From contig OZ244922.1 of the NCBI GenBank assembly GCA_965221905.1, positions 2,912,001 through 2,976,000 of the forward strand: a stretch of DNA of 64,000 bases. Reading direction: 5' to 3'. This document shows, piece by piece, positions 40,424 through 56,665 of the stretch (positions within the stretch are counted from its first letter, which is position 1; the number at the start of each line of letters is the position of its first letter). Under the pieces are notes generated by a model, which saw nothing but the letters and a program-made list of their open reading frames with translations, searched no databases and was not told the origin of the DNA. The position numbers were made by a program, and so were the translations under genes. The DNA comes from Chloroflexota bacterium. GTDB lineage: Bacteria > Chloroflexota > UBA11872 > VXOZ01.

Positions 40424-40677
40424 TGGCAGGATTTGCATGCTCGCTTGCTCGCCGGAGTGCCGGTCAAAAGCAGAAGACGATTTGACCGCTCATCCTCACT
40501 GGTGGGATGGGCGGTATCTTTGTTCCTCGGCGGTCGTGGGGCGGCCAAATCGACGCGCACACAACGTGACTGCGCTGACGAAAGTGTTCGAAGCTGCAAC
40601 TAGGTAGTGGCTGTGCAAGTGCGTTGCCGATGCGCTGAACTCACCGCAGGATTACGAGAGGATTGGGCAAGAGGCTG

Positions 40678-40998: not shown

Positions 40999-41490
40999 CA
41001 AGACAATTTGTTCGATACGGCAAGTATCAGGGAGTTCTATCAGTCGCGCGATGCACACTTTCCTTGGTCGCGCTGAAGTCGCTTTAGGCAGCACAAATAG
41101 CGGGTTAGCTCGCGCCTCAGCATAGAGATTAGAAAGCGGCTAGGGAATCAACCGGGCGGAGTCACGCGGAGGATCGAAGTTTCTCGGTTGCGAAGGCGTT
41201 GCATGGGGCTAGCGTGTGGTTGCAGACCGGTTGGCTAGGGGCATCACGCATCAAGCAGGCTCCCCAACCGGTCTTTCTGAGGACGGCGGCGGCGAAGAAT
41301 CTCATGAGTGCCAATTATAGAATCCTCGTTTAGCTTGGAAGTGTACGTGTCAGGTAAATCGCTGACAGAATGGGAGCATGAAACGGCAGGAAGTAAGGGC
41401 TACCAGTCTGCTGCCTCACCCAATAGGTAATTCTGTCACGATCAGTGACAGGGCATGCATCAAAGACGAACAGGGTAGGCGGCCGGAAGA

Positions 41491-41586
41491 CCGTCACTCC
41501 GGCCCAAAGCCTGCCCCATTCTTAATGCGGGTCGGGAGCCTAAGGGGTGCAGTGAAGATGGATTCCCGCTTTCGTCGGAATGACGG
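41491..41586. repeat. Inverted pair of GTCATTCC-type palindromic repeats
   Basis: CCGTCACTCCGG ... GGATTCCCGCTTTCGTCGGAATGACGG; same family as 17256 and 45838. Confidence 0.7.
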
Positions 41587-41777
41587 AGTTGACCGTCTTC
41601 AACTTTCCAAGGTATTAACCGGATTGGCGACTCTGTCAACGAATCAGTCGACACTTGCACGAATGACCGGAGCTAAAGCGCAGCAAGAAAGGCAATTCCA
41701 AATTTTCACATTCAGTCTCGCTTTCTCGTGCGGAACTTGGGACAGATGTTTTTCTCGCGCAAAGTAAATACACCTCT

Positions 41778-43793
41778 ATGACCGCAAATATTGGAACAGC
41801 TTTACTCTTCATTGGCCTTTTGGCCGCGCTCTTCGGGGCTGTCGCGTCTGTGCTCGGCGCACGTCTGCGGGTGCCGGAGTTGGTCGTAAGCGCGCGCAAC
41901 GCCGTAGTGGCCGTCGCCGTGCTGGTCGCGCTCTCCTCGCTCACCCTCATCTATGCCTTTGTGTCCCACGACTTCAGCCTGAAGTACGTAGTCGCACAGT
42001 CGACCCGCTCTCAGCCGTGGCCCTACCTCTTCAGCGGTTTCTACGGCGGCCAAGCCGGCTCTTTGCTCTATTGGTCTCTCACACTGGCGTTGCTCTCTTC
42101 GGTGGTAGTGCTCATCCACTTCCGCACGGACCGGCAACTGATTCCCTACGTGATTACGGTCCTCATGACAATCGAGGCGTTCTTTCTTTTAGTGCTCAAT
42201 TTCATCTCGTCACCGTTCGAGACCATTTCGCCGGTGCCGCCTGACGGGCGCGGCCTCAACCCGCTGCTGCAAGACCCGGGCATGCTCGTGCACCCACCCA
42301 TGTTGCTGGCCGGATACATGAGCGTCTCGATCCCCTTCGCCTTTGCCATAGCTGCCTTGATCACAGGCCACGTGGACAGCCGTTGGCTCAAGGCTACACG
42401 CCACTATGCGCTGCTCGCCTGGCTCTTTCTCTCACTCGGCAACCTGTTGGGGGCATGGTGGGCCTATCACGTTCTGGGTTGGGGCGGATACTGGGGCTGG
42501 GACCCCGTGGAAAACGTCGCGATCTTGCCGTGGTTCGCTATGACCGCCTATGTGCATTCGGTATTGGTGCAAGAGCGGCGCGGCATGCTGAAAGTCTGGA
42601 ACATGGTCCTCATCATCGTAGCCTTTAACTTAGCCCTATTCGGGACGTTTGTGGTTCGGAGCGGAATCCTCTCATCCGTCCACTCTTTTGCGGTATCCGA
42701 AATCGGCCCGTACTTCTTCGGCTTCCTGGCGGTCAGCCTGATCGTCTCGCTCACGCTCCTCATGCTGCGTCTGCCCCAACTGCGTGACGAGCATGATTTC
42801 GACTCCCTGTTGTCGCGCGAAGCGACGTTTCTCTTCAACAACCTTCTCCTGGTAGCAGTGATACTCGTCACCTTTCTCGGCGTGATCTTCCCGCTCCTCT
42901 CGGAAGCAATTCAAGGACGGAAGATCAATGTCGGCGCGCCGTTCTACCAGCAAGTCAACGGGCCGCTCTTGCTGGCCGTGGTCGCGCTGATGGGCTTTGG
43001 CATGCTCGTGCCGTGGCGGCGCGGTGCGGCGCGGGCGCTCTTGCGGGGACTGCGCACCACGCTGATTGCTACCGCCTTGGTTACGGCTGCGGCCATCGTA
43101 CTTGGCGCGCGCTCTCCATGGTCGATACTAAGTATCGCTGCTTGTACGTTCGCGTTCGTTGTTGCCCTCCGCGAGTTTCATCGCACGGCCATTGCCCTTA
43201 TGCGTGCCCAACAGACGCTCTATCCAGCCGCATTGCTCGCGGTCTTTCGCTATAATCGCCGCCGCTATGGCGGGTATCTCGTTCACGTAGGAGTGGCAGC
43301 CTTAGGCATTGCCATTATTGGCTCCTCTTTCTTTCAAACTGAACGTTCCGTGAGTATGCGTCCCGGTCAGAGCGTGGAAGTAGGCCGGTACACAGTGGCG
43401 TACCAAGGTCTTACAACGTGGAGCGAACCGGGCAAGCAACGCACGATCGCCTCCCTGCTGGTGCGCAATGCCAACCAATCATTCGAAGTAGCGCCGCAGA
43501 AGGTAGTCTACGCAAATTGGGAAGACCAGCCGGTGAGCGAGGTTGTAATCAAGACGGTCTATCCGCAGTTCGACGACGTCTACATAGTAATGGCGGCCTT
43601 CGGTGAGGACGGCACGGCAAGTTTTCACATTTTCGTGAACCCGCTCGTCGCCTTTCTTTGGCTGGGCGGGGCGCTCCTTGTAGTCGGCGGGCTCATTTCG
43701 TGGTGGCCGACTTCGTCAAAGTCGGCGGAATCAGCCCCAGTGACCGATGACGTTCGCGCCGGACGGCCGGCGCCGGGCACGGTCCCGCCATAG
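41778..43793 (+). CDS. ccmF: Heme lyase CcmF
   Basis: GLNPLLQ, HPP, WWD domain WGGYWGWDPVEN, SVHSF. Confidence 0.97.
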   Translation: MTANIGTALLFIGLLAALFGAVASVLGARLRVPELVVSARNAVVAVAVLVALSSLTLIYAFVSHDFSLKYVVAQSTRSQPWPYLFSGFYGGQAGSLLYWSLTLALLSSVVVLIHFRTDRQLIPYVITVLMTIEAFFLLVLNFISSPFETISPVPPDGRGLNPLLQDPGMLVHPPMLLAGYMSVSIPFAFAIAALITGHVDSRWLKATRHYALLAWLFLSLGNLLGAWWAYHVLGWGGYWGWDPVENVAILPWFAMTAYVHSVLVQERRGMLKVWNMVLIIVAFNLALFGTFVVRSGILSSVHSFAVSEIGPYFFGFLAVSLIVSLTLLMLRLPQLRDEHDFDSLLSREATFLFNNLLLVAVILVTFLGVIFPLLSEAIQGRKINVGAPFYQQVNGPLLLAVVALMGFGMLVPWRRGAARALLRGLRTTLIATALVTAAAIVLGARSPWSILSIAACTFAFVVALREFHRTAIALMRAQQTLYPAALLAVFRYNRRRYGGYLVHVGVAALGIAIIGSSFFQTERSVSMRPGQSVEVGRYTVAYQGLTTWSEPGKQRTIASLLVRNANQSFEVAPQKVVYANWEDQPVSEVVIKTVYPQFDDVYIVMAAFGEDGTASFHIFVNPLVAFLWLGGALLVVGGLISWWPTSSKSAESAPVTDDVRAGRPAPGTVPP

Positions 43794-43805
43794 GGAATCA
43801 CCGGG

Positions 43806-44408
43806 ATGAAGACAATCGCCATGGATGGGAAACGCACGACCATGCTAGGCCCCCGCAGCGGAGACGACACTCCCCGTTCAGAACTCATGCCGGCAAGAAC
43901 ACGCACACACTTCGTGACAATCTCGGTCGCACTGTTGCTCGCTGCGCTGCTGCTCCATTTGGCGCCGGCTATCACCGGAGCGGCAAGTATCGACGAACAG
44001 ACCGTGGCAGTTGCCAAGCAGCTCAAGTGTCCGGTCTGCCAGAATGTGCCGGTTGCATACTCCCAGTCACAATTGGCAGGTGAGATGCGCCTGGTCATTC
44101 GCGAAAAGCTAGCAAACGGCGAGAGCGAAGAAGCGATCATCCAGTACTTCGTAGACCGCTACGGCGAGGATGTGCTGCTTGAACCCCGCCGCGAGGGCTT
44201 CAGTCTCTTGTTGTGGGTTGCGTCCATTGGAGTGGTGGTCTTTGGCGCCGCCGTCGTCGGCATCGTGCTCTGGAACTGGAGTCAAGCCCGACCGGTATCA
44301 ACGACTGCTTCCGCAATGCCGACCGACTCACCAAAAGCGCCGTCCGGCAAGCTGGAGCAACTCTTCGAAGAGGAGTACGCACGGTACAAGCAGGACAAGC
44401 GCACATGA
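43806..44408 (+). CDS. ccmH: Cytochrome c biogenesis protein CcmH
   Basis: LKCPVCQN, YFVDRYGEDVLL.P; start uncertain. Confidence 0.92.
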   Translation: MKTIAMDGKRTTMLGPRSGDDTPRSELMPARTRTHFVTISVALLLAALLLHLAPAITGAASIDEQTVAVAKQLKCPVCQNVPVAYSQSQLAGEMRLVIREKLANGESEEAIIQYFVDRYGEDVLLEPRREGFSLLLWVASIGVVVFGAAVVGIVLWNWSQARPVSTTASAMPTDSPKAPSGKLEQLFEEEYARYKQDKRT

Positions 44409-45712
44409 GCGTGATCGTCTTTGGGAGCGTGTTCGGTGTGGCTGCCCTGATATGGATTGTGTGGCCTCTGGTAGGGCGCAGAGGCGCCTCCACCACACTT
44501 TCGGCAGGCGGCGTCCGCGATGACCTCGCCGAACGCACCTTGCTGCTCTATCAAGAGCTCGAGGAAATCGACCTCGAGCACGAGCAAGGCGATCTCACGG
44601 CAGACGAGTACGAGTCCTTACGCGCGGCGCAGAAGCAACGCGTCCTCAGCGTGCTCGAGGAGAGGCAGAGCGAAGAGGGCGCTCTCAGTGACGCCGCGGG
44701 ACTAGATGAAGCCAGCGCGCTCAGCTACGCCATCGAGGAAGATATCCTGCGCATACGCGCCCGGCGGCGGGGACAACAGCATGTTCCGGCCGACCAAGTG
44801 GCTGTGGATCCAGCTTCGGCTTCCTCCATGTCGAAGGGCGTGCATTGGCTCTGGATAGCGGTACCCGCAGCCCTCGTACTCATCGCTTTCGGCGTTATCT
44901 TTCAGCTCTATCGTTCGTCCTCCCGCACGCTTACCGAGCAGACGCCAATTGCACAGATTGACGCAGCGGGGCTCGTGGGGTTTGCCTTCCTTGCTCCCGA
45001 TCACGTTTTGTTGGCTCAAACGTCCGGTCTGTTGGAAAGCCGCGATGGGGGACGCGCGTGGACTCAAAGCGCACTGGATGTTGCGCCCGCCGCCATGGCA
45101 GTATCTCCTTCCGGTGAAGGCTACGCCTATGTATTCACAGAGAGCAGTATCCACGTCACGGCCGATTCGGGACAAACTTGGCAGGAAGTTCAAGGCACGT
45201 TGCCCAGCGCGCAGATTCTTGCCGCAGCGGTGAATGCTTTCGCTCCTACGGAAATCTACGCGAGCTTCGCCGAGAGCGGTTTGTTCCGCTCGCGTGACGG
45301 GGGTAGATTTTGGGAACCGGTGGCAACGCCGGATGACGAGAAGATTGTGGCAATTCTCGTAAGCGGCATTACGCCGCTGCTATTCATTGCCTTAGAATCA
45401 GGCAGAGTGCAGGTGAGCAGCGATGAGGGAGAGACGTGGTCTGCCGCCAGCGGCGCAGTTACCATGGCGTTGCGGGGACCCGTTCGCGCACTGACCGGCG
45501 CATCGGACGGAAGCACGCTCTACGCTGCGGCCCACACCGGATTGTACCTTTCCACGTCAGCCGGGCAGACGTGGGTAGACCTGCCGCTGCGCAAACCGCT
45601 GGTCGCGGTGACGGTTGACCCAACGACCGCCCGCACTGTGCTCGCGGTGACGGAGATGGGAGAAGTCTATCGCAGCACCGACGGCGGCATTGCCTGGAGA
45701 AACGACCAGTGA
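44405..45712 (+). CDS. CcmI-N-like membrane segment fused to a BNR/YCF48-like beta-propeller
   Basis: ATGA overlap with ccmH; ELEEIDLEHEQGDLTADEY motif between two TMs; multiple Asp-boxes (SRDGGRAW, TADSGQTW, SRDGGRFW, SSDEGETW, STDGGIAW). Confidence 0.75.
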   Translation: MSVIVFGSVFGVAALIWIVWPLVGRRGASTTLSAGGVRDDLAERTLLLYQELEEIDLEHEQGDLTADEYESLRAAQKQRVLSVLEERQSEEGALSDAAGLDEASALSYAIEEDILRIRARRRGQQHVPADQVAVDPASASSMSKGVHWLWIAVPAALVLIAFGVIFQLYRSSSRTLTEQTPIAQIDAAGLVGFAFLAPDHVLLAQTSGLLESRDGGRAWTQSALDVAPAAMAVSPSGEGYAYVFTESSIHVTADSGQTWQEVQGTLPSAQILAAAVNAFAPTEIYASFAESGLFRSRDGGRFWEPVATPDDEKIVAILVSGITPLLFIALESGRVQVSSDEGETWSAASGAVTMALRGPVRALTGASDGSTLYAAAHTGLYLSTSAGQTWVDLPLRKPLVAVTVDPTTARTVLAVTEMGEVYRSTDGGIAWRNDQ

Positions 45713-47157
45713 CAGGCCAACATAGCCCGCATCCGAACCGTCACGCACCTTTTCTGTCATGCCCTTCACAACAGGAGCGATCCTGCGCGCCGACTCCGTC
45801 ATTCCCGCCACAACAGGAGCGCACTTGCACGCTGACTCCGTCATTCCCGCGAAAGCGGGAATCCATCTGCGGCAGCAGTGCGAGCGGCTCAACAACCGAA
45901 TGCATTACCGCCCCGCTCCAATTCTGGTCGCCAATATCTATTGCACTGTCATTGTTGCTCTGCATTCTCCTGACCCTCCTGATTCATTCCACGATCGCCG
46001 CAGCGGACGGCGTCATCAGCGGCACCGTCGTCAACGGCACTGCGGACGGCAGTGTACCGGCTGATGTAGCGGTGACCCTCTACTTCCTTCGCGATGGTGA
46101 AATCGTGGAACAACGCACGCAGGTCACCGGGCCTGAAGGCGCCTACCGTTTCTCCGACCTTCCCACCGATCCCATGCTGGGATTTGTGGTCGTGGCTGCC
46201 TATACGCAAGTTCCATACAACACGCCGGAGCTCAAGTTTACCGAGGGTACCGCGGTCCAAGCGCCCCCACTCATCGTGTTCGAGGCAAGCCAGGATGCGA
46301 GCGTGGTGCGGGTCGTCACTGACGTGCTGATCATTGCGCCGGGAGAAGAGAGTAGCGGCATGCTCAGCGTCATCGAGATAGTGCGGTTAGCCAATGATAG
46401 CGACCGCACATTCCTTGCCACCGGCGGTGCTGGCGCCGGAGCGCCGATGGACAGAGTGCTGCGGTTTGCCCTCCCCGTAGATGCACAAGACCTCACGATG
46501 CTGAGCGGCCTCAATGCGCAAAACGTCGTGCAGATCGATCGCGGTTTCGGCGTCTTCATGCCGTTGTTGCCGGGAGAGCGTGAAGTAATGTTTGGGTACC
46601 AACTGCCGTACTCCGGCAGCACGCTCAGTCTTACCAAGCGCACGGTGTACCCCACCGACCAATTTGCCATCCTTGCGCGTGAAGAGTATGGGCTGCGCTT
46701 CAACGCAGACCAGCTTGAGGTCCAAGCCGATCCGATTGGCGATCGCCGCTACCTGGTGGGGTCAACCAACTCGCTCGCCGCCCGCGCTGAGGTCTCGGTG
46801 CAAATTGCAGGTTTGCCCGCGCCCTCCATACGGGTGCGGCTTGAACGTCTATTTGATCGCGCGCGCGACACGCAGGCAGCTCTCTTCTTCCTGCTTGGCG
46901 TAGTCCTGATTCTGCCTGTCCTCTATGCGGTCTACCGCATGCGGGGCGGCCCGCGCCGCAGGGCCACAGCCACAGCGGCGGTTGCGACCGCTGTTCCGGC
47001 GGCTGGCGAGACGTTGCTCCTGGAGATCGCGCAACTAGATGACGAATTTGCGGCGGGTGGGATTGCCGCAGAGGAGTACCGGCGACTGCGCGCGGAAAAG
47101 AAGCAGCGTCTGATGGAAATCCATCGAGAACCAGGCAAAGAGACCGGCGATGAATGA
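45709..47157 (+). CDS. Ccm-cluster accessory membrane protein (carboxypeptidase-regulatory-like beta domain, C-terminal CcmI-like helix motif)
   Basis: GTGA overlap; GVISGTVVNGT...GAYRFSDL; C-terminal TM then EIAQLDDEFAAGGIAAEEY..LR. Confidence 0.7.
   Translation: MTGQHSPHPNRHAPFLSCPSQQERSCAPTPSFPPQQERTCTLTPSFPRKRESICGSSASGSTTECITAPLQFWSPISIALSLLLCILLTLLIHSTIAAADGVISGTVVNGTADGSVPADVAVTLYFLRDGEIVEQRTQVTGPEGAYRFSDLPTDPMLGFVVVAAYTQVPYNTPELKFTEGTAVQAPPLIVFEASQDASVVRVVTDVLIIAPGEESSGMLSVIEIVRLANDSDRTFLATGGAGAGAPMDRVLRFALPVDAQDLTMLSGLNAQNVVQIDRGFGVFMPLLPGEREVMFGYQLPYSGSTLSLTKRTVYPTDQFAILAREEYGLRFNADQLEVQADPIGDRRYLVGSTNSLAARAEVSVQIAGLPAPSIRVRLERLFDRARDTQAALFFLLGVVLILPVLYAVYRMRGGPRRRATATAAVATAVPAAGETLLLEIAQLDDEFAAGGIAAEEYRRLRAEKKQRLMEIHREPGKETGDE
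45754..45864 (+). repeat. In-frame 42-bp tandem array ending in a GTCATTCCCGCGAAAGCGGGAATCC palindrome
   Basis: Units start at 45754, 45796 and 45838. Confidence 0.8.
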
Positions 47158-47887
47158 ACCTAAGTGCGCGGCACCGGACCTTGCCGTTGAGGCGAAGGGG
47201 CTGACCAAGCGCTACGGGTCCCACATTGCCCTGGATAACGTAGACCTCTCTGTGGGCTGTAACGAGCGCCTGGCGATTCTCGGGCCCAATGGCTCCGGGA
47301 AAACAACACTCATTGCGGTACTGAGCACAATCATGCGCGCTTCCGCAGGCGCGTTTCGCATCATGGGCTGGGACAGCGCAAATGCTTCGAACGAGGTGCG
47401 CCGACACGTCGGCGTCGTGGCGCACCGCACATATCTCTACGAGGAGCTTTCGGCGCGTGAGAACTTGCTCTTCTACGGCCGCCTCTACGGGGTGCCGAAC
47501 CTCGCGCAGCGTGTTGATGCGCTGCTGAAGTTGGTAGACATCTTTCCCCGTCGCCACGATCAAGTCGCCAATCTATCGCGCGGCATGCAGCAGCGTGTGG
47601 CGTTGGCGCGCGCCCTAGTCCACGATCCCGACGTGCTGCTGCTTGACGAGCCGGACACCGGCCTCGACCAAGAACACCTTGATCTCCTGGCTTCACTCGT
47701 GCAAGGCCGCGCTATCCCGGCCCGGACGGTTATCCTAACCACCCACAACTTAGACCGCGCGTTGGCCCTGTGCAATCGCGTGATGGTGCTCGCACAGGGG
47801 CGGCTGGTCTATCATGCCGAAAGCTCGACCCTCGATCACACTGCGCTGCACAACGCATACCGCCGCCTCGCAGGAGCAGCGCAATGA
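47150..47887 (+). CDS. ccmA: Heme ABC exporter ATPase CcmA
   Basis: GPNGSGKT, LYEELSARENL, LSRGMQQR, LLDEP; operon context. Confidence 0.9.
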   Translation: MNEPKCAAPDLAVEAKGLTKRYGSHIALDNVDLSVGCNERLAILGPNGSGKTTLIAVLSTIMRASAGAFRIMGWDSANASNEVRRHVGVVAHRTYLYEELSARENLLFYGRLYGVPNLAQRVDALLKLVDIFPRRHDQVANLSRGMQQRVALARALVHDPDVLLLDEPDTGLDQEHLDLLASLVQGRAIPARTVILTTHNLDRALALCNRVMVLAQGRLVYHAESSTLDHTALHNAYRRLAGAAQ

Positions 47888-48552
47888 TGCTACCGGTGCA
47901 GCAAGTCCTCACGGTGGTTCGGAAAGACCTCTTGGTAGAGTCCCGCGCCCGCGACCTGCTCACCGTAATGCTTACCTTTGCAGTGCTAACGCTCATCATA
48001 TTCAACCTGGCCTTGGACCTACGGGGGCCAACGGTCCAAGAGATAGGGCCCGGACTGCTGTGGCTGACCATTACCTTCGCTGCCATCCTCGGCATGGGAC
48101 GCACGTTTGTGCGTGAGTACGAACGGGGAACGCTCGCCGGATTACTGCTTGCGCCGGTTGACCGGGGCACGCTCTTCGTTGCTAAGTTGCTGGCAAACCT
48201 CATTTTCCTCTTCATCATGGAAGCGGTCACCCTGCCCATGTTCGCCTTGCTCTTCAACCTGCCGGTGCTCCGACCGTCAGTGATTCTCATCACGGCCTTA
48301 GGCACGCTGGGCTTTGCTATCCTGGGCACAATCTTCTCTGCCATGGCAGCACACAGCAGGGCGCGCGAGGCATTGCTGCCGCTCCTGCTCTTGCCCACAA
48401 CGGTGCCCGTGCTTATTGGCTCAGTAAAAGCGACAACTAACGCGCTCAGCGGCACCGTGGACGGGACACCATGGATCGGCCTGCTGATCGCTTTCGACGT
48501 AATCTTTCTTACCCTTTCGTACCTCCTATTTGCACATGCAGTTGAAGGCTGA
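47884..48552 (+). CDS. ccmB: Heme exporter protein CcmB
   Basis: KDLLVESR, GLLW, EYERGTL.GLLLAP, LLPLLLLP; ATGA overlap. Confidence 0.92.
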   Translation: MMLPVQQVLTVVRKDLLVESRARDLLTVMLTFAVLTLIIFNLALDLRGPTVQEIGPGLLWLTITFAAILGMGRTFVREYERGTLAGLLLAPVDRGTLFVAKLLANLIFLFIMEAVTLPMFALLFNLPVLRPSVILITALGTLGFAILGTIFSAMAAHSRAREALLPLLLLPTTVPVLIGSVKATTNALSGTVDGTPWIGLLIAFDVIFLTLSYLLFAHAVEG

Positions 48553-48803
48553 TGTGAGCACTATTGTCGGAAGAGCATTAGGAAAACGTGTGTATACCCA
48601 GTGCCATACAGGGCTACGATTGCCTTCTTGGAATTGCTTCGCCTTTAGATCCGAGCGCCGAAAGAGGAGCAAGCGGCGTGAGCCAAACGTCGGCTTAGCT
48701 TTGCGCTATTTTTATAATGTGACCATCGGATTGCACGGGGGCAGCGCGCCGGCACGGTAGATGCGCGAAACAGTCCCAAGATCACACTAAGTAAGACTTT
48801 TAT

Positions 48804-49523
48804 TTGGAAAGGACGTCGATGTTGCTAAGCAATAATGCAGACGGCGCGCGGAGATGGATCGATGACCTCCTGGGCGTAGCCACGTTGATCGGCATGGTCG
48901 TGGCCCTTTGGCTCATATTTGTCTACACACCGGTTGAGCTCGTGCAGGGCGCGTCGCAGAAGATATTTTATATCCACCTGGCGTCAATATGGAACGCCTA
49001 CTTGAGCTTCTTCCTTGTTTTCGTGGCGAGCATCCTCTATCTCAGGCGGCCGACTTCCGGCAGAGACCGGTTCGCCCGCGCTTGGGCGGAAATTGGGGTG
49101 CTCTTCACTACGATCACGCTCATCAGCGGAGCAATTTGGGGCAAACCGATTTGGGGCACGTATTGGAGTTGGGACCCGCGTCTCACCACCACGCTCTTGC
49201 TTTGGCTCATCTACGTGGTCTATCTCATGCTGCGCGGATTCGTCGGCGACCCCGAACGCGGCAGGCGCTATGCGGCGATCGTTGGCATCATCGGCTTTAT
49301 TGACGTGCCAATTGTGCATATGTCCGTGCGTTGGTGGCGCACCTTGCACCCCGATCCCATCGTAGCCAGAGCGGAAGGCCCGGACCTACCCATGAGCATG
49401 TGGTACACCGTGCTCTACTGCATCGTCGTATTTACGGTGCTGGCGGTCTTCCTGGTGCGGCAACGCTTGCAGATCGACGAGCTACGAGAAACCCTAATTG
49501 ACCTACGTACGTCCGCAAGATGA
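48804..49523 (+). CDS. ccmC: Heme exporter protein CcmC
   Basis: IFYIH, WWD domain WGKPIWGTYWSWDPR, WWRTLHP. Confidence 0.95.
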   Translation: MERTSMLLSNNADGARRWIDDLLGVATLIGMVVALWLIFVYTPVELVQGASQKIFYIHLASIWNAYLSFFLVFVASILYLRRPTSGRDRFARAWAEIGVLFTTITLISGAIWGKPIWGTYWSWDPRLTTTLLLWLIYVVYLMLRGFVGDPERGRRYAAIVGIIGFIDVPIVHMSVRWWRTLHPDPIVARAEGPDLPMSMWYTVLYCIVVFTVLAVFLVRQRLQIDELRETLIDLRTSAR

Positions 49524-49543
49524 ATGCACGAGGGAGCATCCGA

Positions 49544-49723
49544 ATGGAAACGATACAAAACTTTGACTACCTCTTCGCAGCATATGCCATTCTTTGGGTG
49601 GTGGTTTTCGGCTACTTCTTCTTCCTTACACGGCAGCTTGGCGAATTGCGGCGCGAGGTCAACGCGCTCCGCGAGGAACGCGCAAGCGGCGAATCCGGCC
49701 CGGACGCATCGCCAGACTCTTAG
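49544..49723 (+). CDS. ccmD: CcmD family small membrane protein
   Basis: YLFAAYAILW single TM plus charged tail directly after ccmC; GGGAG RBS. Confidence 0.8.
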   Translation: METIQNFDYLFAAYAILWVVVFGYFFFLTRQLGELRREVNALREERASGESGPDASPDS

Positions 49724-49798
49724 TCTCCGGCCCAAATAGGCAGCGCATCAACCTTTTGCGCTACCAGCGCGGCAGTGCCGAAGTGACACGTCGATTTG

Positions 49799-49827
49799 TT
49801 GGCACCTCCATGGGTGCATGGTATGCT
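49799..49827 (+). promoter_or_regulatory. Putative sigma70 promoter
   Basis: TTGGCA-N17-TATGCT with a TGn extended -10. Confidence 0.5.
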
Positions 49828-49874
49828 ATAAATAATGAAGTAATGGCGAAACCTAGAAATCCGAGCGAGTTGAA

Positions 49875-51413
49875 ATGACGGAAGACGCACCAAGTACTGC
49901 TGCTAAAGCAGGTAGCCAAACTGCGGAATCGGAGAGTCGCGGGAGCCAAGAACGTAGTGCTCTTGCAAGCTCCCCCGCTTTGGATATGCTCACAGAGACC
50001 GACGCTCGTGCACGCAGTCTGGCCCTCAACGACCGTGTTCCCGCCAGCGGATTATTTGGCGAGGCAGACCGGCCCCTTATTGAGGGGTCTCGCGCTTCTT
50101 GGCGCATCGCGCCGGAGCCCTTCCTCATCAATCCCGATAGCTACCGGCGTCTACAGCAATTGGGGAACCAGCTACTTGCCTTCTACAGCGCCGCGAACCG
50201 CCTCTACCGCCGCAGCGTGCGTGGCACTATCCCACCGTTCTTCCACGAGTATCTCGATATCGGCAAGAGCGATACCGTAATCGACTACGGGCGTATGAAT
50301 CGCTTCCGTCGCGACCTGCCCGGTGTGATTCGGCCCGATCTTCTCCTGACAAATGACGGCGTTAAGGCTGCCGAACTGGATTCCATTCCCGGCGGCATCG
50401 GCCTTACTGGCAGCATGCAGCAGCACTACGATAGCTTGGGATTCTCGATGGTAGGGGGCGCGAACGGCATGGTGGAAGGCTTTGCCGCCATGATCCGCAG
50501 CCGAGCCGCGAAAGACGACCCACAGCTCGCCATAGCCGTTTCAGACGAGTCGGTGGACTACCGTCCTGAAATGCAGTGGCTGTCCGATCAATTGTGCGAG
50601 CTTGGCATGAGCAGCGCATGTGCCAAACCCGAAGAGATAGAGATGCACGGCGACTGTCTCATGCTCAATGGGCAGCCCGTCGACACGCTCTATCGCTTCT
50701 TCGAGCTCTTCGATCTCAAGAACATCCCGAACTACGATCTTCTTCTCTACGCCGCCCGCAAGCAACTCATCACCATGACGCCGCCGGTGAAGGCGTATCT
50801 CGAGGAGAAGCTCCTCTTTGCCCTCTTCCATCATCCCGTGCTGGCTGAATTCTGGAAGCAAGAGTTGGGGGCAAAGAACGTAGCGGCCCTGCAGCGAGTA
50901 ATACCGGAAACCTGGATCCTAGACCCGCGCCCGCTGCCGCCGCAAGCCGTCGTTCCCGGACTGAACATTGCCAAGCGACCGGTAACGAATTGGGGTCAAC
51001 TCAAGGGCTTGGGCCAATCCGACCGGCGGCTGGTTATCAAGCCTTCCGGCTTCTCGGCGACAGCCTGGGGCAGCCGCGGCGTCACCATCGGCCACGATCA
51101 CCCCGAAGCGGAGTGGGATGCAGCAGTGCAGAGTGCCCTCGACGCTTTCGCGACGACCCCCCACGTCTTACAAAAGTTCCACCACGGCAATCGGTACGGC
51201 ACCCGCTACTATGACTTTGCTCAAGACGCAGTGCGCAAGATGAACGGGCGCGTGCGCCTGAGCCCATATTACTTCGTGGCCAATGACGAAACGACGCTTG
51301 CCGGCATCCTCGTAACTATCGTGCCGGCGGACAAAAAACTTATCCATGGTATGGTTGACGCCGTGATGGTGCCTGCCGCCATCAGCGATAACGGTGTAGA
51401 CCTGGAACTATAG
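49875..51413 (+). CDS. Uncharacterised ATP-grasp-like ligase (circularly permuted / glutathionylspermidine-synthase-like)
   Basis: IRPDLLL, ELDSIPGG, LYRFFE, EEK, VIKPSG..AWGSRGV.IG, VLQKF motif order. Confidence 0.65.
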   Translation: MTEDAPSTAAKAGSQTAESESRGSQERSALASSPALDMLTETDARARSLALNDRVPASGLFGEADRPLIEGSRASWRIAPEPFLINPDSYRRLQQLGNQLLAFYSAANRLYRRSVRGTIPPFFHEYLDIGKSDTVIDYGRMNRFRRDLPGVIRPDLLLTNDGVKAAELDSIPGGIGLTGSMQQHYDSLGFSMVGGANGMVEGFAAMIRSRAAKDDPQLAIAVSDESVDYRPEMQWLSDQLCELGMSSACAKPEEIEMHGDCLMLNGQPVDTLYRFFELFDLKNIPNYDLLLYAARKQLITMTPPVKAYLEEKLLFALFHHPVLAEFWKQELGAKNVAALQRVIPETWILDPRPLPPQAVVPGLNIAKRPVTNWGQLKGLGQSDRRLVIKPSGFSATAWGSRGVTIGHDHPEAEWDAAVQSALDAFATTPHVLQKFHHGNRYGTRYYDFAQDAVRKMNGRVRLSPYYFVANDETTLAGILVTIVPADKKLIHGMVDAVMVPAAISDNGVDLEL

Positions 51414-51451
51414 AACGCCGATTAGGGGATTTGGGAGAATAAGGAATCGCA

Positions 51452-52624
51452 ATGGCACTATCGCAGACCGAAGTGAAACGAGAAAAAGATGAGTGGCAGG
51501 AATTGCTCGCGGCCGGCATTAACCGGCCGGAGAAGCTCATTACCGAGCTTGGCGAGCGGCTCGGCCTAGATGACGAAACGGCGGCCAGCCTTCACAAGAA
51601 CTTCCCGGTCAGGATCAACCCCTACTACCTCGGCCTAATTGATGAGGTCAACGACCCTATCTGGCGTCAGGCCATTCCCGATGAAATGGAACTCGACCAT
51701 AGCGATTCATTGACGACAATGGATCCGCTGGCTGAGGATATGGATTCGCCGGTGCCCTATCTGACGCACCGCTATCCCGATCGCGTGCTCATGGTCGTGC
51801 AATTGCAGTGCGCTATGTACTGCCGCTTCTGCACGCGCCGCCGCGAAGTGGGCAGCCGCAATGCCGTGACCAAGAACGATTGGGACCGCCAAATCGAGTA
51901 CATCGCTTCCAATCCCAAGGTACGCGATGTCATCATATCCGGCGGCGACCCTTTCATGCTGCTCGACCACCAAATCGACTATATTCTCAAAAACCTGCGG
52001 GCGATTCCGCACATGGAGATCATCCGCCTCGACTCCCGCATGCCCGTCACTCTGCCCCACCGCGTGACGGAGAACCTCTGCGAAATCATGCAACGCTATC
52101 ATCCGGTCTACCTGAACACGCATTTCAACCATCCGCGCGAGATCACGCCTGAATCCACCCGCGCGTGCGAACTGATGGCCGACCACGGCATCCCCTTGGG
52201 TAACCAGAGCGTGCTGCTGCGGGGTGTGAATGACGATGCGGAAGTGATGAAGGAGCTTGTACAGAAGCTCCTAGTGATTCGGGTCAAGCCGTACTACCTC
52301 TACCAGGCCGACTTGGTCACCGGTACCAGCCACTTCCGCACCTCCGTGGAGAAAGGCCTGGAAATCATCAAGGCGATTCAGGGCCACACCAGCGGCATGG
52401 CTGTCCCGCATTTCGTGATCGATGCGCCGCAAGGCGGCGGCAAAATTCCCGTGACGCCCGATTTCATCCAGGAAATCACCGACGACGAGATCGTGCTGAA
52501 GAATTACGAAGGCAACGTCTACCGCTATCCGATTGACTCCGAGGTGCCGAACGCACAGGAAACGAAGCTATCCCAGGCGCAGACCAACGGCAAGGGCAAC
52601 GGCACAGCTACCGAAACCACTTAA
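51452..52624 (+). CDS. kamA: Lysine 2,3-aminomutase (KamA family radical SAM/PLP enzyme)
   Basis: HRYPDR, CAMYCRFC, SGGDP, NQSVLLRGVND, YYLYQAD, IDAPQGGGK. Confidence 0.9.
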   Translation: MALSQTEVKREKDEWQELLAAGINRPEKLITELGERLGLDDETAASLHKNFPVRINPYYLGLIDEVNDPIWRQAIPDEMELDHSDSLTTMDPLAEDMDSPVPYLTHRYPDRVLMVVQLQCAMYCRFCTRRREVGSRNAVTKNDWDRQIEYIASNPKVRDVIISGGDPFMLLDHQIDYILKNLRAIPHMEIIRLDSRMPVTLPHRVTENLCEIMQRYHPVYLNTHFNHPREITPESTRACELMADHGIPLGNQSVLLRGVNDDAEVMKELVQKLLVIRVKPYYLYQADLVTGTSHFRTSVEKGLEIIKAIQGHTSGMAVPHFVIDAPQGGGKIPVTPDFIQEITDDEIVLKNYEGNVYRYPIDSEVPNAQETKLSQAQTNGKGNGTATETT

Positions 52625-52691: not shown

Positions 52692-53744
52692 GTGAATCCC
52701 CCTCTTCGCATCGCCGCCGTCGGATTAGAGCACGACGAGATTTACCGCGTGCTCGACCGGCTGCGCCGACATGAGACTGCCGACTTGGTAGCCATCGCCG
52801 AACGCAGCGGGAGACTCCGTATGGCGGCGGCAGGTCGGTATCGTGTGCCGGTCTTCCCGCGCCTCACGCCGCTCTTGGCCGAAACTGCTGTAGATGCTGT
52901 CATCGTGGCTACGGCCAATGGCGATAAGGCGGCGGCCATCCAGGAAGCCATGCGCGCCGGCAAGCACGTTATCGCCCACGCACCGTGCACGCTAACTCTG
53001 GAGCAAGTAGCCGCTGTAAAAGAGGCGCAAACCGCGTTAGGCAGCGGCTTGGTCTTGCTGCATCCTCTGCGCTTCACACCGGTATACGTGCACTTACGGG
53101 ATGCGATTGCTCAGGGACTGCTGGGCGCCATTTGCCAGGCCGTAGTCATCAACTCGCAGAAGGTCACGGCCACACCTCGTACCCAGGCGTTCTATGCGAC
53201 GCACACGCACGGCGGCGTGCTGACCAATCTTGCCGTCCACGACCTTGACGTGCTGCGCTGGCTCGGCGGAGATCTGACCGTAACCGCCGCCGCTACACAG
53301 CGACACGGCCTCACCGAGCACCCGGACTTCGAAGATGCGGGCCTAGTCCATTGTGCGTTCAATTCTGGCGGTACGGGTGTGGTGGCGTGCAATTGGCTCG
53401 CGCCGGACGCGGGGGCCCCATTCCAAGAACTAACGTTGATCGGCACTGAAGGCACGGCGTGGATCAGCGGCGGCAAGTTGCACGCGTTGGGAGCAAATGA
53501 CCGATCGTCTCTGACGAACGAGCCGCAAAGCAGTGGATACTTGGCGACCCAAGATGAGTCCGGTCGCGCCTTTCCTCCAACTTCCGCTGCCAAAGCCGAC
53601 TACGATGTTGCCGCGGCCATGCTCGACGCGGCTATTCAATCTCTCAGCGATGCCGACTTGAGGCAAGTTGCCACCGCCGATGCATTCCGCACGTCTAGCG
53701 TGGCCGTGCAGGCCCAGCACATCGCGTGGCAGGACCGTGCGTGA
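52692..53744 (+). CDS. Gfo/Idh/MocA family oxidoreductase (divergent)
   Basis: AGKHVI, GGVLTNLAVHDLD, FEDAG; usual EKP reads HAP. Confidence 0.8.
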   Translation: MNPPLRIAAVGLEHDEIYRVLDRLRRHETADLVAIAERSGRLRMAAAGRYRVPVFPRLTPLLAETAVDAVIVATANGDKAAAIQEAMRAGKHVIAHAPCTLTLEQVAAVKEAQTALGSGLVLLHPLRFTPVYVHLRDAIAQGLLGAICQAVVINSQKVTATPRTQAFYATHTHGGVLTNLAVHDLDVLRWLGGDLTVTAAATQRHGLTEHPDFEDAGLVHCAFNSGGTGVVACNWLAPDAGAPFQELTLIGTEGTAWISGGKLHALGANDRSSLTNEPQSSGYLATQDESGRAFPPTSAAKADYDVAAAMLDAAIQSLSDADLRQVATADAFRTSSVAVQAQHIAWQDRA

Positions 53745-54600
53745 CGTGAATGCAACCGGCCAAGCCGCACCAACGTTCCTCACCATCGGCCATGCCTCGC
53801 GGGATCTCATGCCCGGCGGCTGGCGCTGGGGCGGCACGGTGACCTACGCCGCACTGCTTGCGCGCACCTGGGGAGTGTCAGCCGCTGTGCTCACAGCCCT
53901 CGCACCGGAAGACGAGCCTCTCTATCAGGCGTTCCTCGGCAGTGACGTGATGCTGCACACGCTCCCATCCAAGAACACAACGTCGATGGCGAACGAATAT
54001 ACCGCTGCGGGACGCCGGCAGCAGCTCGCCGCCAAAGCCTCGAAGATTCACCCCCGCCACGTGCCTACAGCTTGGCGCGACACGCCCATCGTGCTCGTCG
54101 CGCCTCTCTTCGGTGAGGTATCGACGCAATTTGGCGGGTCTTTCCCCCAAGGGTCGCTCGTCGGCATGACCATCCAAGGTCGCCTGCGCAGTCACCGCAA
54201 GGGCCGCATCTATTCCCGCCGCTGGCACCGCGCCGAGCAGGAATTTTCTGCCTACGATATAATCTTCTTCTCCGAAGAAGATGTGCGCGGCAATGCTGAA
54301 CTTGCCGAATACTACGCCTCGCTTGTCCCGCTGGCAGTAATGACCCAGGGTGACTCCGGCGCAACCGTCTTCGTACAAGGCCGAGCTGTGCAACACGCCG
54401 CCTTTCCGGCCCAGCCCGTGGACGCTACCGGCGCGGGCGACGTGTTTGCGGCTGCATTTCTGCTCCACTATGCGGAGAACCGTGATCCGACAGCCGCCTG
54501 TCGCTACGCGAATGCCGCCGCCGCGTGCAGCATCGAGCACGCCGGCGCGAGTAGTATTCCCACACACCGGCAAGTGGCCGCACGGCTGCGCTCTGCGTGA
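53737..54600 (+). CDS. PfkB family carbohydrate kinase
   Basis: GGTVTY, T.G..GA, VDATGAGDVFAAAF, ANAAAA. Confidence 0.9.
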   Translation: MRDVNATGQAAPTFLTIGHASRDLMPGGWRWGGTVTYAALLARTWGVSAAVLTALAPEDEPLYQAFLGSDVMLHTLPSKNTTSMANEYTAAGRRQQLAAKASKIHPRHVPTAWRDTPIVLVAPLFGEVSTQFGGSFPQGSLVGMTIQGRLRSHRKGRIYSRRWHRAEQEFSAYDIIFFSEEDVRGNAELAEYYASLVPLAVMTQGDSGATVFVQGRAVQHAAFPAQPVDATGAGDVFAAAFLLHYAENRDPTAACRYANAAAACSIEHAGASSIPTHRQVAARLRSA

Positions 54601-54687
54601 AGTATGTAATTGGCGTAAAAAGCCGTTCACCGCTGCACACTGCATCCACTGACTATACGCTGGCCTCCCTTTATGTAAATCCAAGAG

Positions 54688-54873
54688 GCGGGGAACAAGC
54701 CCCCGCGCTACGGCGTTTCTTGTCCCCTCTCCATTGAGGGAGAGGGTTAGGGTGAGGGTGAGGGGGAAATGCTAGTCTTGCCGCACCCACGTGAGCAAGA
54801 TAATTTCAAGCAATGCTTTCTTGGACATCGCTCTCTCTCCAGATGTGCGCAGGTTGCAAACCTGCGCTACCGG
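54688..54873. repeat. Cluster of three palindromic repeats
   Basis: GTAG-REP on minus strand (54688-54711), CCCCTCTCC..GGGAGAGGGTTAGGGTGAGGG (about 54724-54758), GTAG-REP on minus strand (54845-54873). Confidence 0.72.
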
Positions 54874-54925
54874 AAATGGCAGTAGAATAGATACATACGC
54901 ATTCAGACTATAAAGGATACATTGC

Positions 54926-56665
54926 TTGAACATTGACGTTGCTACTCTTACCGCTTTGCGCCGGGAATTCACCGACAAGATCGTCGGCGGACGGATACAG
55001 CGCGTTCTGCACCCGAACCATCTCGCCGTCGGCCTCGAGATTTATGCGCGGGGCGAGACGTGGTGGCTCATCATCAATGCCGCACCGCAAGCGCCGCATC
55101 TCTATCTCACCCGCGAGCGGCCGGCGCGCGCTGACGACAACGTAACGCCGCTCCTGCTCCTATTGCGCAAGTACGTGCGGGGAGGACGGCTTGCCGCGGT
55201 GGAGCAGCCGCCCTGGGAGCGTGTCTTGCAGTTCACCGTCCACGCGCGGGTGGACGACGACATTGTGGAAACTACGCTCATCGCTGAGATCATGGGGCGC
55301 ACGAGCAACCTGGTGCTGGTGGACGCCGACGGCGCCATTCTCGACAGCATGAAGCGGGTAGACTTATCCATCAATCGTTACCGCCAAGTATTGCCCAAGC
55401 TGCCGTACCTCCCGCCCCCACCCCTTGAGCGTCCCGATCCTTTTGCGGTGCAAGCATCGCAATTGGAATCCGCGGCCCAGTCCGATCCCAAACCTCCCGC
55501 CTGGCGTGTGCTCATGGGGCAGACCAGCGGCTGCGGACCCCTCCTCACCCGTGAAGCGGTGTTCCGCGCTGCAGGCAAGGCTGAAGCACCGGCAGCAGGT
55601 GTTGTGTGGGAAGGCGTGATCGCTGCAGCGCGCGCTATCTTTACGCAGGTCGCGAGCGGCGAACCCACGCCCTCCCTCGCCCACAGTGAAGACGGCGCGC
55701 TCGCGGCCTATGCGCCCTATACCTTGAGTATGTTCCCGCAGTGCGAATTACAAGACACGATGAGCGCAGCCATCGAGCGCTTCTACCGGGAGCAGGGCAA
55801 AACGCCGCAGCGCCGGACGCCCGACCTGGGCCAGAAGCCGCTGCTGGCAGCGATGCAAGAGCGCATGGACCAACTCCGGCAGCGGCGGCGTGCCCTGGAA
55901 CACCAGCAGGCGGAAGCTGTCGACGCGGAAGAATGGCGGCGCAAAGGGGATATGGTCCTGGCGTTTGGCTACAGTGCTGCGCCGGACAGCAGCGAGATCG
56001 AGGTTGACGGCGAGACAATTCGCATTGATCCGAAAATCTCGGTCGCTGCGAATGCCGACACGTACTTTTCCACCTACAAGCGTAAGAAGCGGGCGCAGGA
56101 AGAAGTGCCGGGGCTGCTGCGCAAGGTTAAGAATGAATACGCCTACTGCGAGCAAGCCGAGGCCCTGCTCGAGGCAGCGGAGACGCCAACCGACGTGCGC
56201 GCGTTACGCGAAGAGTTGCGAGAGCAGGGCATCGTAAGCGGCGGCAAGCCTCGCAAGGATAAAGGACGCAAAGGCAAGCGCGGCAGAGCTGTGGAAGAGG
56301 GAGCGCGCCCGGTCTCGCTCTGGCTCGACGGCGTGCAAGTGCTCGTAGGCCGCAGCGGAGCCCAGAACGACGCCGCCCTGCGTCTTGCCGACGCCGACGA
56401 CGTGTGGCTGCACGCGCGCAACGTGCCCGGCGCACATACCGTCCTGCGCTCCGGCGGACGCGAGGTGCCGGAAGACATCATCAACCAGGCGGCCCAGATC
56501 GCTGCCTACTACAGCAAGTTGCGTGAATCCACTAGTGCCGAGGTAGACGTCACCCGCCGCCGCTACGTCCGCCGCATCCCCGGCGCGCACCCCGGCCTCG
56601 TCACCTACCGCAACGAGTACACCATCCGCGTGAAGCCGATGCCGTTGCCGCAGCCTGAGCGGTGA
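54926..56665 (+). CDS. rqcH: Ribosome quality control protein RqcH (NFACT/FbpA)
   Basis: LLLRKY, ERV, EIMGR.SN, VGRS..QND, WLHARNVPGAH, AAYYSK. Confidence 0.92.
   Translation: MNIDVATLTALRREFTDKIVGGRIQRVLHPNHLAVGLEIYARGETWWLIINAAPQAPHLYLTRERPARADDNVTPLLLLLRKYVRGGRLAAVEQPPWERVLQFTVHARVDDDIVETTLIAEIMGRTSNLVLVDADGAILDSMKRVDLSINRYRQVLPKLPYLPPPPLERPDPFAVQASQLESAAQSDPKPPAWRVLMGQTSGCGPLLTREAVFRAAGKAEAPAAGVVWEGVIAAARAIFTQVASGEPTPSLAHSEDGALAAYAPYTLSMFPQCELQDTMSAAIERFYREQGKTPQRRTPDLGQKPLLAAMQERMDQLRQRRRALEHQQAEAVDAEEWRRKGDMVLAFGYSAAPDSSEIEVDGETIRIDPKISVAANADTYFSTYKRKKRAQEEVPGLLRKVKNEYAYCEQAEALLEAAETPTDVRALREELREQGIVSGGKPRKDKGRKGKRGRAVEEGARPVSLWLDGVQVLVGRSGAQNDAALRLADADDVWLHARNVPGAHTVLRSGGREVPEDIINQAAQIAAYYSKLRESTSAEVDVTRRRYVRRIPGAHPGLVTYRNEYTIRVKPMPLPQPER

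What the first reader, a model, noticed from the sequence alone, without database searches (positions are those of the whole stretch)
49799..52624. ATP-grasp-like ligase paired with lysine 2,3-aminomutase: candidate beta-lysine ligation pathway
Seen: a putative promoter, then a 512-aa protein with circularly-permuted-ATP-grasp-like motifs, then kamA 38 bp later. KamA keeps both aspartates that bind the lysine side chain (YQAD, VIDAP), which glutamate 2,3-aminomutases replace. Established: KamA-family genes usually sit with kamDE (lysine fermentation), ablB (N-acetyl-beta-lysine osmolyte), epmA/efp (EF-P modification) or NRPS genes, and none of these is in the window. Inference: the ligase attaches beta-lysine to a small molecule, peptide or protein (for example a gamma-glutamyl-beta-lysine solute or an EpmA-independent protein modification). 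I do not know of a description of this pairing.
Basis: partly seen in the sequence, partly recalled or inferred. Interest (0 to 1): 0.7.

Follow-up and report, generated by a model that had tools for sequence, protein, structure and literature searches.

The report
Beta-lysine stand-in for glutathione
An unnamed enzyme predicted to fold like glutathione synthetase occurs together with a likely beta-lysine-making enzyme and with altered glutaredoxins in three bacterial phyla, and the usual glutathione genes were not found in the few genomes checked, so it likely makes an undescribed beta-lysine-containing thiol that would stand in for glutathione.

Summary
Observation confirmed. 49875-51413 encodes an unannotated, widespread family with a predicted circularly permuted ATP-grasp fold (glutathione/glutathionylspermidine synthetase type, Z about 26). 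A KamA with both lysine-binding aspartates follows 38 bp later. Every ligase genome in three phylum samples has a KamA (29/29 Chloroflexota, 59/59 Nitrospirota, 58/58 Verrucomicrobiota), adjacent in 13/29, 53/59 and none. EpmA, AblB and KamD were not found in this genome. EF-P is not the common target: 16 of 30 ligase genomes, this one included, lack the modified lysine. A distinct CGWS glutaredoxin tracks the ligase (28/29 vs 0/222; 50/58 vs 0/143), a small glutaredoxin sits inside the Nitrospirota operon, and both monothiol glutaredoxin types carry Asp at the conserved Gly of the gamma-glutamyl site. GshA was not found in 5 genomes tested. All three genes survive in 0.9-Mb genomes. Best reading (about 50%): a glutathione-like thiol, most simply beta-Lys-Cys(-X). 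No chemistry was shown. The scan noted this pair before on other DNA (three notes, two with a thiol idea); no paper was found.

The parts
49799..49827 (+). Likely promoter (-35 and extended -10 hexamers, 17-nt spacer) of the ligase-kamA pair
   Evidence: 9/12 consensus match, not above chance alone; both hexamers kept in 10 of 10 close relatives; RNA-library contigs start at 49846-49876 in 3 of 4 runs
49875..51413 (+). Unnamed circularly permuted ATP-grasp ligase, glutathione-synthetase-like fold (predicted); catalytic-type motif R153-x-D155...E167-x-D169
   Evidence: no family match; fold; conserved residues; 5585 and 1764 relatives
51452..52624 (+). Short KamA-family radical SAM/PLP aminomutase, likely lysine 2,3-aminomutase; no C-terminal zinc cysteines

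Best explanation
KamA likely converts lysine to beta-lysine, and the ligase, predicted to fold like glutathione synthetase, likely uses ATP to join beta-lysine to cysteine or a cysteine-containing partner, giving a small thiol that would replace glutathione for the glutaredoxins that co-occur with it. The simplest product is beta-Lys-Cys, possibly extended, with beta-lysine where glutathione has gamma-glutamate. Shown by calls: gene order, family membership of KamA, the predicted fold and its catalytic-type residues, co-occurrence with KamA and with the glutaredoxins, and the changed glutaredoxin motif. Inferred: both substrates, which one is the acyl donor, and the use of the product in thiol redox and Fe-S handling. 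The CGWS glutaredoxin (G000 C1:1864190-1864582) and a candidate disulfide reductase (G000 C1:2060389-2061777) lie outside the window.
For: (1) Fold: top matches are glutathione, homoglutathione and glutathionylspermidine synthetases, YjfC/YgiC and Cp1B, Z 21.7-26.4. R153/D155/E167/D169 are kept in 78-82 of 82 diverse members and follow the Cp1B acyl-phosphate motif R139/D141/E163/N165 (PMC12568646, passages). (2) KamA in 29/29, 59/59 and 58/58 ligase genomes, against 65/222, 5/92 and 119/143 of the others. Ligase-linked KamAs fall in several clades, which fits a need for free beta-lysine rather than a fixed partner protein. (3) CGWS glutaredoxin in 28/29 vs 0/222 Chloroflexota and 50/58 vs 0/143 Verrucomicrobiota, and in ligase-positive Nitrospirota G307. 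A Grx4-like CGF/YT protein was found in G015, G032, G370 and G292, next to a BolA-like gene (identified by eye) in three of them, and neither type in 5 of 5 ligase-negative Nitrospirota. A CPxC glutaredoxin/GST-N gene family occurs in 28 of 128 loci, lying between ligase and kamA wherever both are in the locus. (4) Asp replaces the second Gly of the GG kink in 120 of 120 CGWS sequences and in 4 of 4 Grx4-like ones; all solved Grx4-type alignments shown have GGCD. That kink binds the gamma-glutamyl moiety (PMC8161271, passages). The Lys before the active-site motif is kept. (5) No GCS2 or Glu_cys_ligase in 5 of 5 genomes; no GshB-type domain in 4 of 5. (6) Ligase, KamA and CGWS Grx are all kept in two 0.9-Mb genomes. 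(7) SUF or cysteine-desulfurase genes lie beside the ligase in three lineages, and an unassigned class I disulfide reductase lies two genes downstream in 3 Akkermansiaceae/Luteolibacter loci, with a 41.6% relative in G000.
Against: No product or activity was measured. The ligase, the CGWS Grx and the loss of EpmA follow class or order lines, so the co-occurrence rests on about three or four lineages, and no control set of other lineage-limited genes was profiled. The Grx profile was built from three ligase genomes. 8 of 58 ligase-positive Verrucomicrobiota lack the CGWS Grx and 2 more have only weak hits; G480 and G453 showed no glutaredoxin of either type. An acidic residue at the same position is normal in glutathione S-transferases, so the operon-internal small protein is not diagnostic. 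The ligase keeps R274 and E225, which by motif order match the gamma-glutamyl-binding Arg267 and Glu214 of human GS (PMC2845819, passages); this could mean an acidic donor, with beta-lysine as the amine. The candidate reductase is absent from G528. In Eremiobacterota the KamA is the kdd-linked fermentation type, and G528 has an NRPS-like protein that could use beta-lysine. The ATP-grasp-type GshA (PF08886), BshC and MshC were not searched.
Confidence: 0.5

Rival explanations
1. The ligase joins beta-lysine to a thiol-free small molecule (an amino acid, dicarboxylate or polyamine), giving a solute, polyamine-like conjugate or cell-wall precursor; the glutaredoxins co-occur through shared history.
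For: The same fold makes peptide-spermidine conjugates (YgiC/YjfC) and epoxysuccinyl-amino acids (Cp1B). The pocket region is rich in conserved acids (E225, E232, E277, D280). G528 has deoxyhypusine-synthase-like and agmatine-deiminase-like genes, and 5 of 5 genomes tested have MurE. Related KamAs sit with two Ddl-like ligases and a small GNAT-like gene in other genomes.
Against: Does not explain a glutaredoxin gene inside the operon, the lineage-crossing CGWS family at 40-56% identity between a Chloroflexota class and Verrucomicrobiota, or the Gly-to-Asp change in two glutaredoxin types.
Confidence: 0.22
2. The ligase attaches beta-lysine to a protein, replacing EpmA on EF-P or acting on another conserved protein.
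For: No ligase genome has EpmA: 0 of 58 vs 117 of 143 in Verrucomicrobiota, 0 of 24 across three other sets, none in G000. Retention in 0.9-Mb genomes fits a housekeeping role. 14 of 30 ligase genomes have a PGKG EF-P, and many bacterial EF-Ps have no known modification (PMC11388002, passages).
Against: 16 of 30 ligase genomes have Arg or Asn at the EF-P site, including G000 (Arg) and both 0.9-Mb genomes (Asn). efp was never a neighbour in 128 loci. The closest folds act on small molecules. The EpmA split follows lineage.
Confidence: 0.12
3. The system makes a thiol, but the KamA acts on another amino acid (arginine or glutamate), so the product contains beta-arginine or beta-glutamate.
For: The KamA is below the cut-off of every substrate-specific model (AblA 471.7/525.4, Eam 416.5/650, ArgM 352.3/600). 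R274 is kept in the ligase.
Against: AblA scores best. Both aspartates that bind the lysine side chain are kept in all ligase-associated KamAs that span them; glutamate aminomutases replace them (recalled, not from a call).
Confidence: 0.08
4. The two genes are an old housekeeping neighbourhood with separate jobs; the ligase does not use the KamA product.
For: Not adjacent in Verrucomicrobiota, Eremiobacterota, 16 of 29 Chloroflexota and 6 of 59 Nitrospirota. KamA is common without the ligase (65/222, 119/143).
Against: Adjacent in two unrelated phyla; 59/59 vs 5/92 in Nitrospirota, where 4 genomes with a KamA from another clade still carry one; no other known beta-lysine user found in G000.
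Confidence: 0.08

Closest known systems
Eukaryote-type glutathione synthetase and homoglutathione synthetase (2HGS, 8FBZ, 5OES, 3KAL, 1M0W)
   Same: Predicted circularly permuted ATP-grasp fold over the whole length (Z 24.8-26.4, about 400-426 residues aligned), R-x-D...E-x-N/D motif; homoglutathione synthetase uses a beta-amino acid.
   Different: 12-14% identity, no Pfam match, Asp for Asn in the E-x-N motif, no gamma-glutamylcysteine ligase found in 5 genomes, obligatory co-occurrence with KamA.
Glutathionylspermidine/trypanothione synthetase, E. coli YgiC and YjfC, 3N6X
   Same: Same fold (Z 21.7-26.3); joins a peptide carboxylate to a polyamine-like amine.
   Different: No GSP_synth or CP_ATPgrasp match, no amidase domain, no fused longer form found (weak evidence), no glutathione synthesis genes found.
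Cp1B (E-64 biosynthesis, 9CJN)
   Same: Same fold (Z 24.6) and catalytic-type motif; shows the fold can take an unusual acyl donor.
   Different: Fungal secondary-metabolite cluster; this family is single-copy and class-wide.
EpmA/EpmB EF-P beta-lysylation
   Same: KamA-family enzyme plus an ATP-dependent ligase; the two systems never co-occurred in the genomes searched.
   Different: EpmA is a lysyl-tRNA-synthetase paralogue; the KamA is below the EpmB cut-off; EF-P here has Arg at the site.
AblA/AblB, and kdd-kamA-kamDE lysine fermentation
   Same: Lysine 2,3-aminomutase as first step.
   Different: AblB, KamD and Kdd not found in G000; the KamA lacks the C-terminal cysteines of AblA-type enzymes.
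Glutathione/glutaredoxin system (Grx4/BolA) and other low-molecular-weight thiols (gamma-Glu-Cys, mycothiol, bacillithiol; recalled)
   Same: Synthetase-fold enzyme, monothiol glutaredoxins, BolA-like and SUF neighbours, a class I disulfide reductase.
   Different: Glutaredoxins have GD in place of GG; the reductase passes no named cut-off; no known thiol contains beta-lysine to my knowledge.

Membership tests
Circularly permuted ATP-grasp ligases (GSH/Gsp synthetase type) | Whole-length structural match to the permuted topology | tested here: met
   Predicted model, Z 21.7-26.4 vs 9 or less for classical ATP-grasp
Circularly permuted ATP-grasp ligases (GSH/Gsp synthetase type) | R-x-D...E-x-N catalytic and metal-binding motif | tested here: met
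   R153, D155, E167 nearly invariant; Asn is Asp169 (motif from PMC12568646)
Circularly permuted ATP-grasp ligases (GSH/Gsp synthetase type) | ATP-dependent amide formation | not testable with these tools
   Needs an assay
Glutathione synthetase / GspS / CP_ATPgrasp sequence families | Pfam or NCBIfam match | tested here: not met
   0 families at E 0.1; no PDB sequence hit with the profile
Glutathione synthetase / GspS / CP_ATPgrasp sequence families | gamma-Glutamylcysteine ligase in the genome | tested here: inconclusive
   PF04107 and PF04262 not found in 5 of 5 genomes; PF08886 not searched
KamA radical SAM family (TIGR00238) | Score above cut-off, CxxxCxxC, PLP lysine | tested here: met
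   328.7 vs 199.2 bits; C120/C124/C127, K331
Lysine 2,3-aminomutase (AblA/KamA equivalog TIGR03820) | Score above 525.4 bits | tested here: not met
   471.7 bits, the best of the substrate-specific models; C-terminal zinc region missing
Lysine 2,3-aminomutase (AblA/KamA equivalog TIGR03820) | Two aspartates for the lysine side chain | tested here: met
   D287 and D324 align with 2A5H; their role is recalled
EpmA/EpmB system | epmA in the genome | tested here: not met
   Best hit is lysyl-tRNA synthetase
EpmA/EpmB system | EF-P with Lys at the loop tip | tested here: not met
   The single efp has KMGRGG
AblAB osmolyte pathway | ablB in the genome | tested here: not met
Lysine fermentation | kamD and kdd in the genome | tested here: not met
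   Not found in G000; present in Eremiobacterota
Low-molecular-weight thiol system | Dedicated thiol-using redoxins that co-occur with the synthetase | tested here: met
Low-molecular-weight thiol system | Dedicated disulfide reductase | tested here: inconclusive
   Candidate in 3 loci and G000, absent from G528, not profiled
Low-molecular-weight thiol system | The thiol detected in cells | not testable with these tools
   Needs LC-MS

The most novel reading that the evidence does not exclude
Verrucomicrobiae, nitrite-oxidising and related Nitrospirota, Eremiobacterota and a whole class of Chloroflexota use an undescribed cationic glutathione analogue, beta-lysyl-cysteine(-X), made by KamA and this ligase, and read by glutaredoxins whose gamma-glutamyl site has been rebuilt with an aspartate and recycled by its own disulfide reductase.
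Probability: 0.38. Interest if true: 0.92.

Novelty: new variant of a known kind. Interest (0 to 1): 0.79.

Why it matters
New cellular thiols are rare finds, and the thiol chemistry of these lineages is open: two papers on Leptospirillum (Nitrospirota) report no glutathione genes and leave another low-molecular-weight thiol as an open question (PMC3435265, PMC7084401; passages). The finding names a two-enzyme route, a testable product and its likely readers. It would also give a role to many orphan KamA genes and a new amide-forming biocatalyst for beta-amino acids. If the product is not a thiol, a single-copy beta-lysine ligase kept across whole classes and in 0.9-Mb genomes is still an undescribed core pathway.

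Tried and rejected
Sequence searches of the ligase against Pfam, NCBIfam and PDB gave nothing. No longer fused form among 8000 candidates (weak evidence). EF-P as the common target was rejected. AblB, KamD, Kdd and the paired Ddl-like ligases were not found in G000 beyond an ordinary-looking Ddl-level hit. The downstream Gfo/Idh/MocA, PfkB and NFACT genes and the upstream ccm genes were seen only in the close Chloroflexota relatives and are treated as local neighbours. A complex prediction of ligase with the CGWS glutaredoxin gave no answer (score 0.08, mark 0.32). Cluster look-ups of 20 distant representatives gave only 'hypothetical protein' names. Literature: nine answered full-text searches plus one on glutaredoxin motifs found no description of this pair or of a beta-lysine thiol; PMC5029188 matched only author names. 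Iyer et al. 2009 on amidoligases (PMC3268129) was not available, and it may mention this family or the KamA/Ddl-like clusters. No supplements were read.
Full report
Observation. The window holds a 512-aa ORF (49875-51413) and, 38 bp later, a 390-aa ORF (51452-52624), both on +. Each is single-copy in the genome G000 (99.6% complete). The promoter-like site at 49799-49827 is no better than chance by consensus, but both hexamers are kept in 10 of 10 close relatives inspected. RNA-library contigs of related strains cover both genes and start at 49846-49876 in 3 of 4 runs; contigs cannot show levels or a single transcript.

The first protein. It has no Pfam, NCBIfam or PDB sequence match, yet 5585 relatives among 8000 candidates and 1764 representatives at 50% clustering, named only 'hypothetical protein' where named. 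The ESM Atlas puts it next to unnamed clusters and, further out, GSP_synth, CP_ATPgrasp and glutathione synthetase clusters. An AlphaFold2 model from 101 sequences (pLDDT 90.8) matches glutathione synthetases, YjfC/YgiC, homoglutathione synthetase, glutathionylspermidine synthetase and Cp1B at Z 21.7-26.4 with 11-14% identity, and classical ATP-grasp enzymes at Z 9 or less. R153, D155, E167 and D169 are kept in 81, 82, 81 and 78 of 82 diverse full-length members, in the order of the Cp1B residues R139/D141/E163/N165 (PMC12568646, passages). So it is a new sequence family in a known amide-forming fold; activity is inferred.

The second protein passes the KamA family cut-off and no substrate-specific one, AblA being closest. 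Against 2A5H it keeps the iron-sulfur cysteines, the PLP lysine and the two aspartates of YQAD and VIDAP, and it lacks the zinc cysteines. The same holds for the ligase-associated KamAs compared. The role of those aspartates in binding the lysine side chain is recalled. Lysine is the likely substrate.

Linkage. Of 128 ligase loci, 99 have at least 1.5 kb downstream and 38 of these have kamA within 1 kb. In the 48 titled genome loci, kamA follows in 14 of 15 Chloroflexota and 6 of 7 Nitrospiraceae (the misses end at the ligase) and in none of 23 Verrucomicrobiota or 3 Eremiobacterota. At genome level, 35 of 38 of these genomes (38 of the 48 loci were given) have a KamA. In phylum samples: Chloroflexota, ligase in 29 of 251, all of the own class, KamA in 29/29 and 65/222 others, adjacent in 13 of 29; in 3 of 3 separated cases fetched a SUF operon lies between the genes. 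Nitrospirota, ligase in 59 of 151, KamA in 59/59 and 5/92, adjacent in 53. Verrucomicrobiota, ligase in 58 of 201, KamA in 58/58 and 119/143, not adjacent. A tree of 78 KamA segments splits the ligase-associated ones into several clades, and in Eremiobacterota the KamA is kdd-linked. The ligase seems to need a KamA of any kind. Kin are not independent, so these counts stand for a few lineages.

Known uses of beta-lysine. G000 has no EpmA (best hit is lysyl-tRNA synthetase), AblB, KamD or Kdd match. EpmA passed its cut-off in 0 of 24 ligase genomes. In Verrucomicrobiota, EpmA-type matches at E 1e-72 or better occur in 0 of 58 ligase genomes and 117 of 143 others. This suggested a replacement of EpmA, but the EF-P loop has Arg in 4 Chloroflexota and 8 Verrucomicrobiota and Asn in 4 more, so 16 of 30 ligase genomes lack the lysine (two divergent second copies were set aside). 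EF-P cannot be the shared target.

Search for the partner. Two 0.9-Mb genomes (G528, G552) keep both genes. Of 807 ORFs called in G528, 468 matched G000; I read most of that list by eye. One was an unusual monothiol glutaredoxin (CGWS), 40-56% identical between G528 and the Chloroflexota class. A three-sequence profile found it in 28 of 29 ligase-positive and 0 of 222 other Chloroflexota, and in 50 of 58 (48 strong, 2 weak) and 0 of 143 Verrucomicrobiota. Ligase-positive Nitrospirota and Eremiobacterota have it (G307) or a Grx4-like protein (G015, G032, G370, G292); G480 and G453 had neither; 5 ligase-negative Nitrospirota had neither. A small CPxC glutaredoxin/GST-N family occurs in 28 of the 128 loci and sits between ligase and kamA where both are present; 39 of the 53 adjacent Nitrospirota pairs have a gap large enough for it. 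Eleven residues after the cis-proline, where Grx4-type proteins have the second Gly of GGCD (all alignments shown), the CGWS family has Asp in 120 of 120 sequences and the four Grx4-like proteins have Asp too. This kink holds the gamma-glutamyl moiety of glutathione (PMC8161271, passages). An acid there is normal in GSTs, so the small operon protein (acidic in 34 of 34 rows, some duplicated) adds nothing on this point. GCS2 and Glu_cys_ligase were not found in 5 of 5 genomes; a GshB-type domain was not found in 4 of 5, with one unexamined 303-aa hit in G021. Among 216 G528 proteins of 150 aa or more without a G000 match, Pfam at E 1e-22 showed no thiol-synthesis or second ATP-grasp peptide ligase, but one NRPS-like protein; 123 shorter ones and the 468 shared ones were not scanned. 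A class I disulfide reductase below all named cut-offs lies two genes after the ligase in L027-L029 and has a 41.6% relative in G000, none in G528.

Mechanism. Most likely, KamA supplies beta-lysine, the ligase forms an acyl phosphate and an amide with cysteine or a cysteinyl partner, and the product serves the glutaredoxins as glutathione does. The Gly-to-Asp change at the gamma-glutamyl end, with the Lys at the other end kept, favours a cationic acyl group, that is beta-Lys-Cys(-X). Against this orientation, the ligase keeps R274 and E225, which by motif order (not by superposition) match Arg267 and Glu214 that bind gamma-glutamate in human GS (PMC2845819, passages). I put a beta-lysine thiol of either orientation at 0.5 and the specific cationic analogue at about 0.38.

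What is known. Full-text searches listed no paper on this pair; I saw listings and abstract starts, and passages of PMC11388002, PMC12632600, PMC12568646, PMC3435265, PMC7084401, PMC2845819, PMC8161271 and PMC5029188. The Leptospirillum papers state that no glutathione genes or glutaredoxins were found and leave another thiol open; I did not confirm that those strains carry the ligase. The 2009 amidoligase survey could not be read. This scan noted the pair on three other windows, two with a glutaredoxin in the operon and a thiol idea; those notes are not independent support. New here are the unlinked CGWS glutaredoxin, the motif change, the EF-P exclusion and the retention in reduced genomes.

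Verdict. Real, conserved and undescribed; a new variant of the glutathione-type system if the thiol reading holds. Interest 0.79.

Noticed in passing
L280-L282, L285 (and by eye L368, L369, L373, L381-L383): A second recurring system in genomes without the ligase: KamA with two tandem Ddl-like ATP-grasp genes (below Ddl cut-offs) and a small GNAT-like gene. Three of these KamAs nest within the Chloroflexota/Nitrospirota ligase-linked clade. Possibly a parallel beta-lysine peptide pathway.
   Followed up: partly
L180-L186, L213; L172, L210-L212: Verrucomicrobial EF-P loops TPPRMA and TPGNLR, with no lysine at the tip; Chloroflexota class has KMGRGG.
   Followed up: partly
L187, L188: Second, divergent EF-P copy (SGTAKFSG loop) in two Nitrospiraceae genomes.
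   Followed up: no
G000 C1:2060389-2061777; L027:6574-7953: Unassigned class I pyridine nucleotide-disulfide oxidoreductase (CILRGCMPSK), below DLD, MerA, GR and mycothione reductase cut-offs.
   Followed up: partly
L126:3740-5242 and relatives: Nitrospira-type gene divergent from the ligase joining a CxxCxxCC zinc/iron domain to an LPG_synthase_C domain; split in some genomes.
   Followed up: no
L158:2670-3821; L231, L233: A dCTP deaminase follows kamA in most Nitrospirota, as the long two-domain type or the short type.
   Followed up: no
window 52692-56665: Gfo/Idh/MocA oxidoreductase, PfkB kinase and NFACT/RqcH genes follow kamA only in close relatives.
   Followed up: partly
window 39959-49726: Cytochrome c maturation cluster (ccmE, ccmF, ccmH, ccmA/B/C-like, by eye and one Pfam hit) with a BNR-repeat protein ends just upstream of the promoter.
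   Followed up: no
window about 45790-45880 and 54720-54880: Short repeated palindromic elements of the 'GTCATTCCCGCG...GGGAATC' kind between or within genes; many RNA contigs fit only a short piece near 54723-54761.
   Followed up: no
L264:12330-15950; L254:7804-8811; L263:6816-7934: The 0.9-Mb genome G528 keeps an NRPS-like condensation/adenylation protein, a deoxyhypusine-synthase-like gene and an agmatine-deiminase-like gene.
   Followed up: no
L297:1336-1728 family: The CGWS glutaredoxins have two further conserved cysteines (C70 after the cis-proline, 117/120; C111 in the tail, 120/120), a possible extra metal or disulfide site.
   Followed up: no
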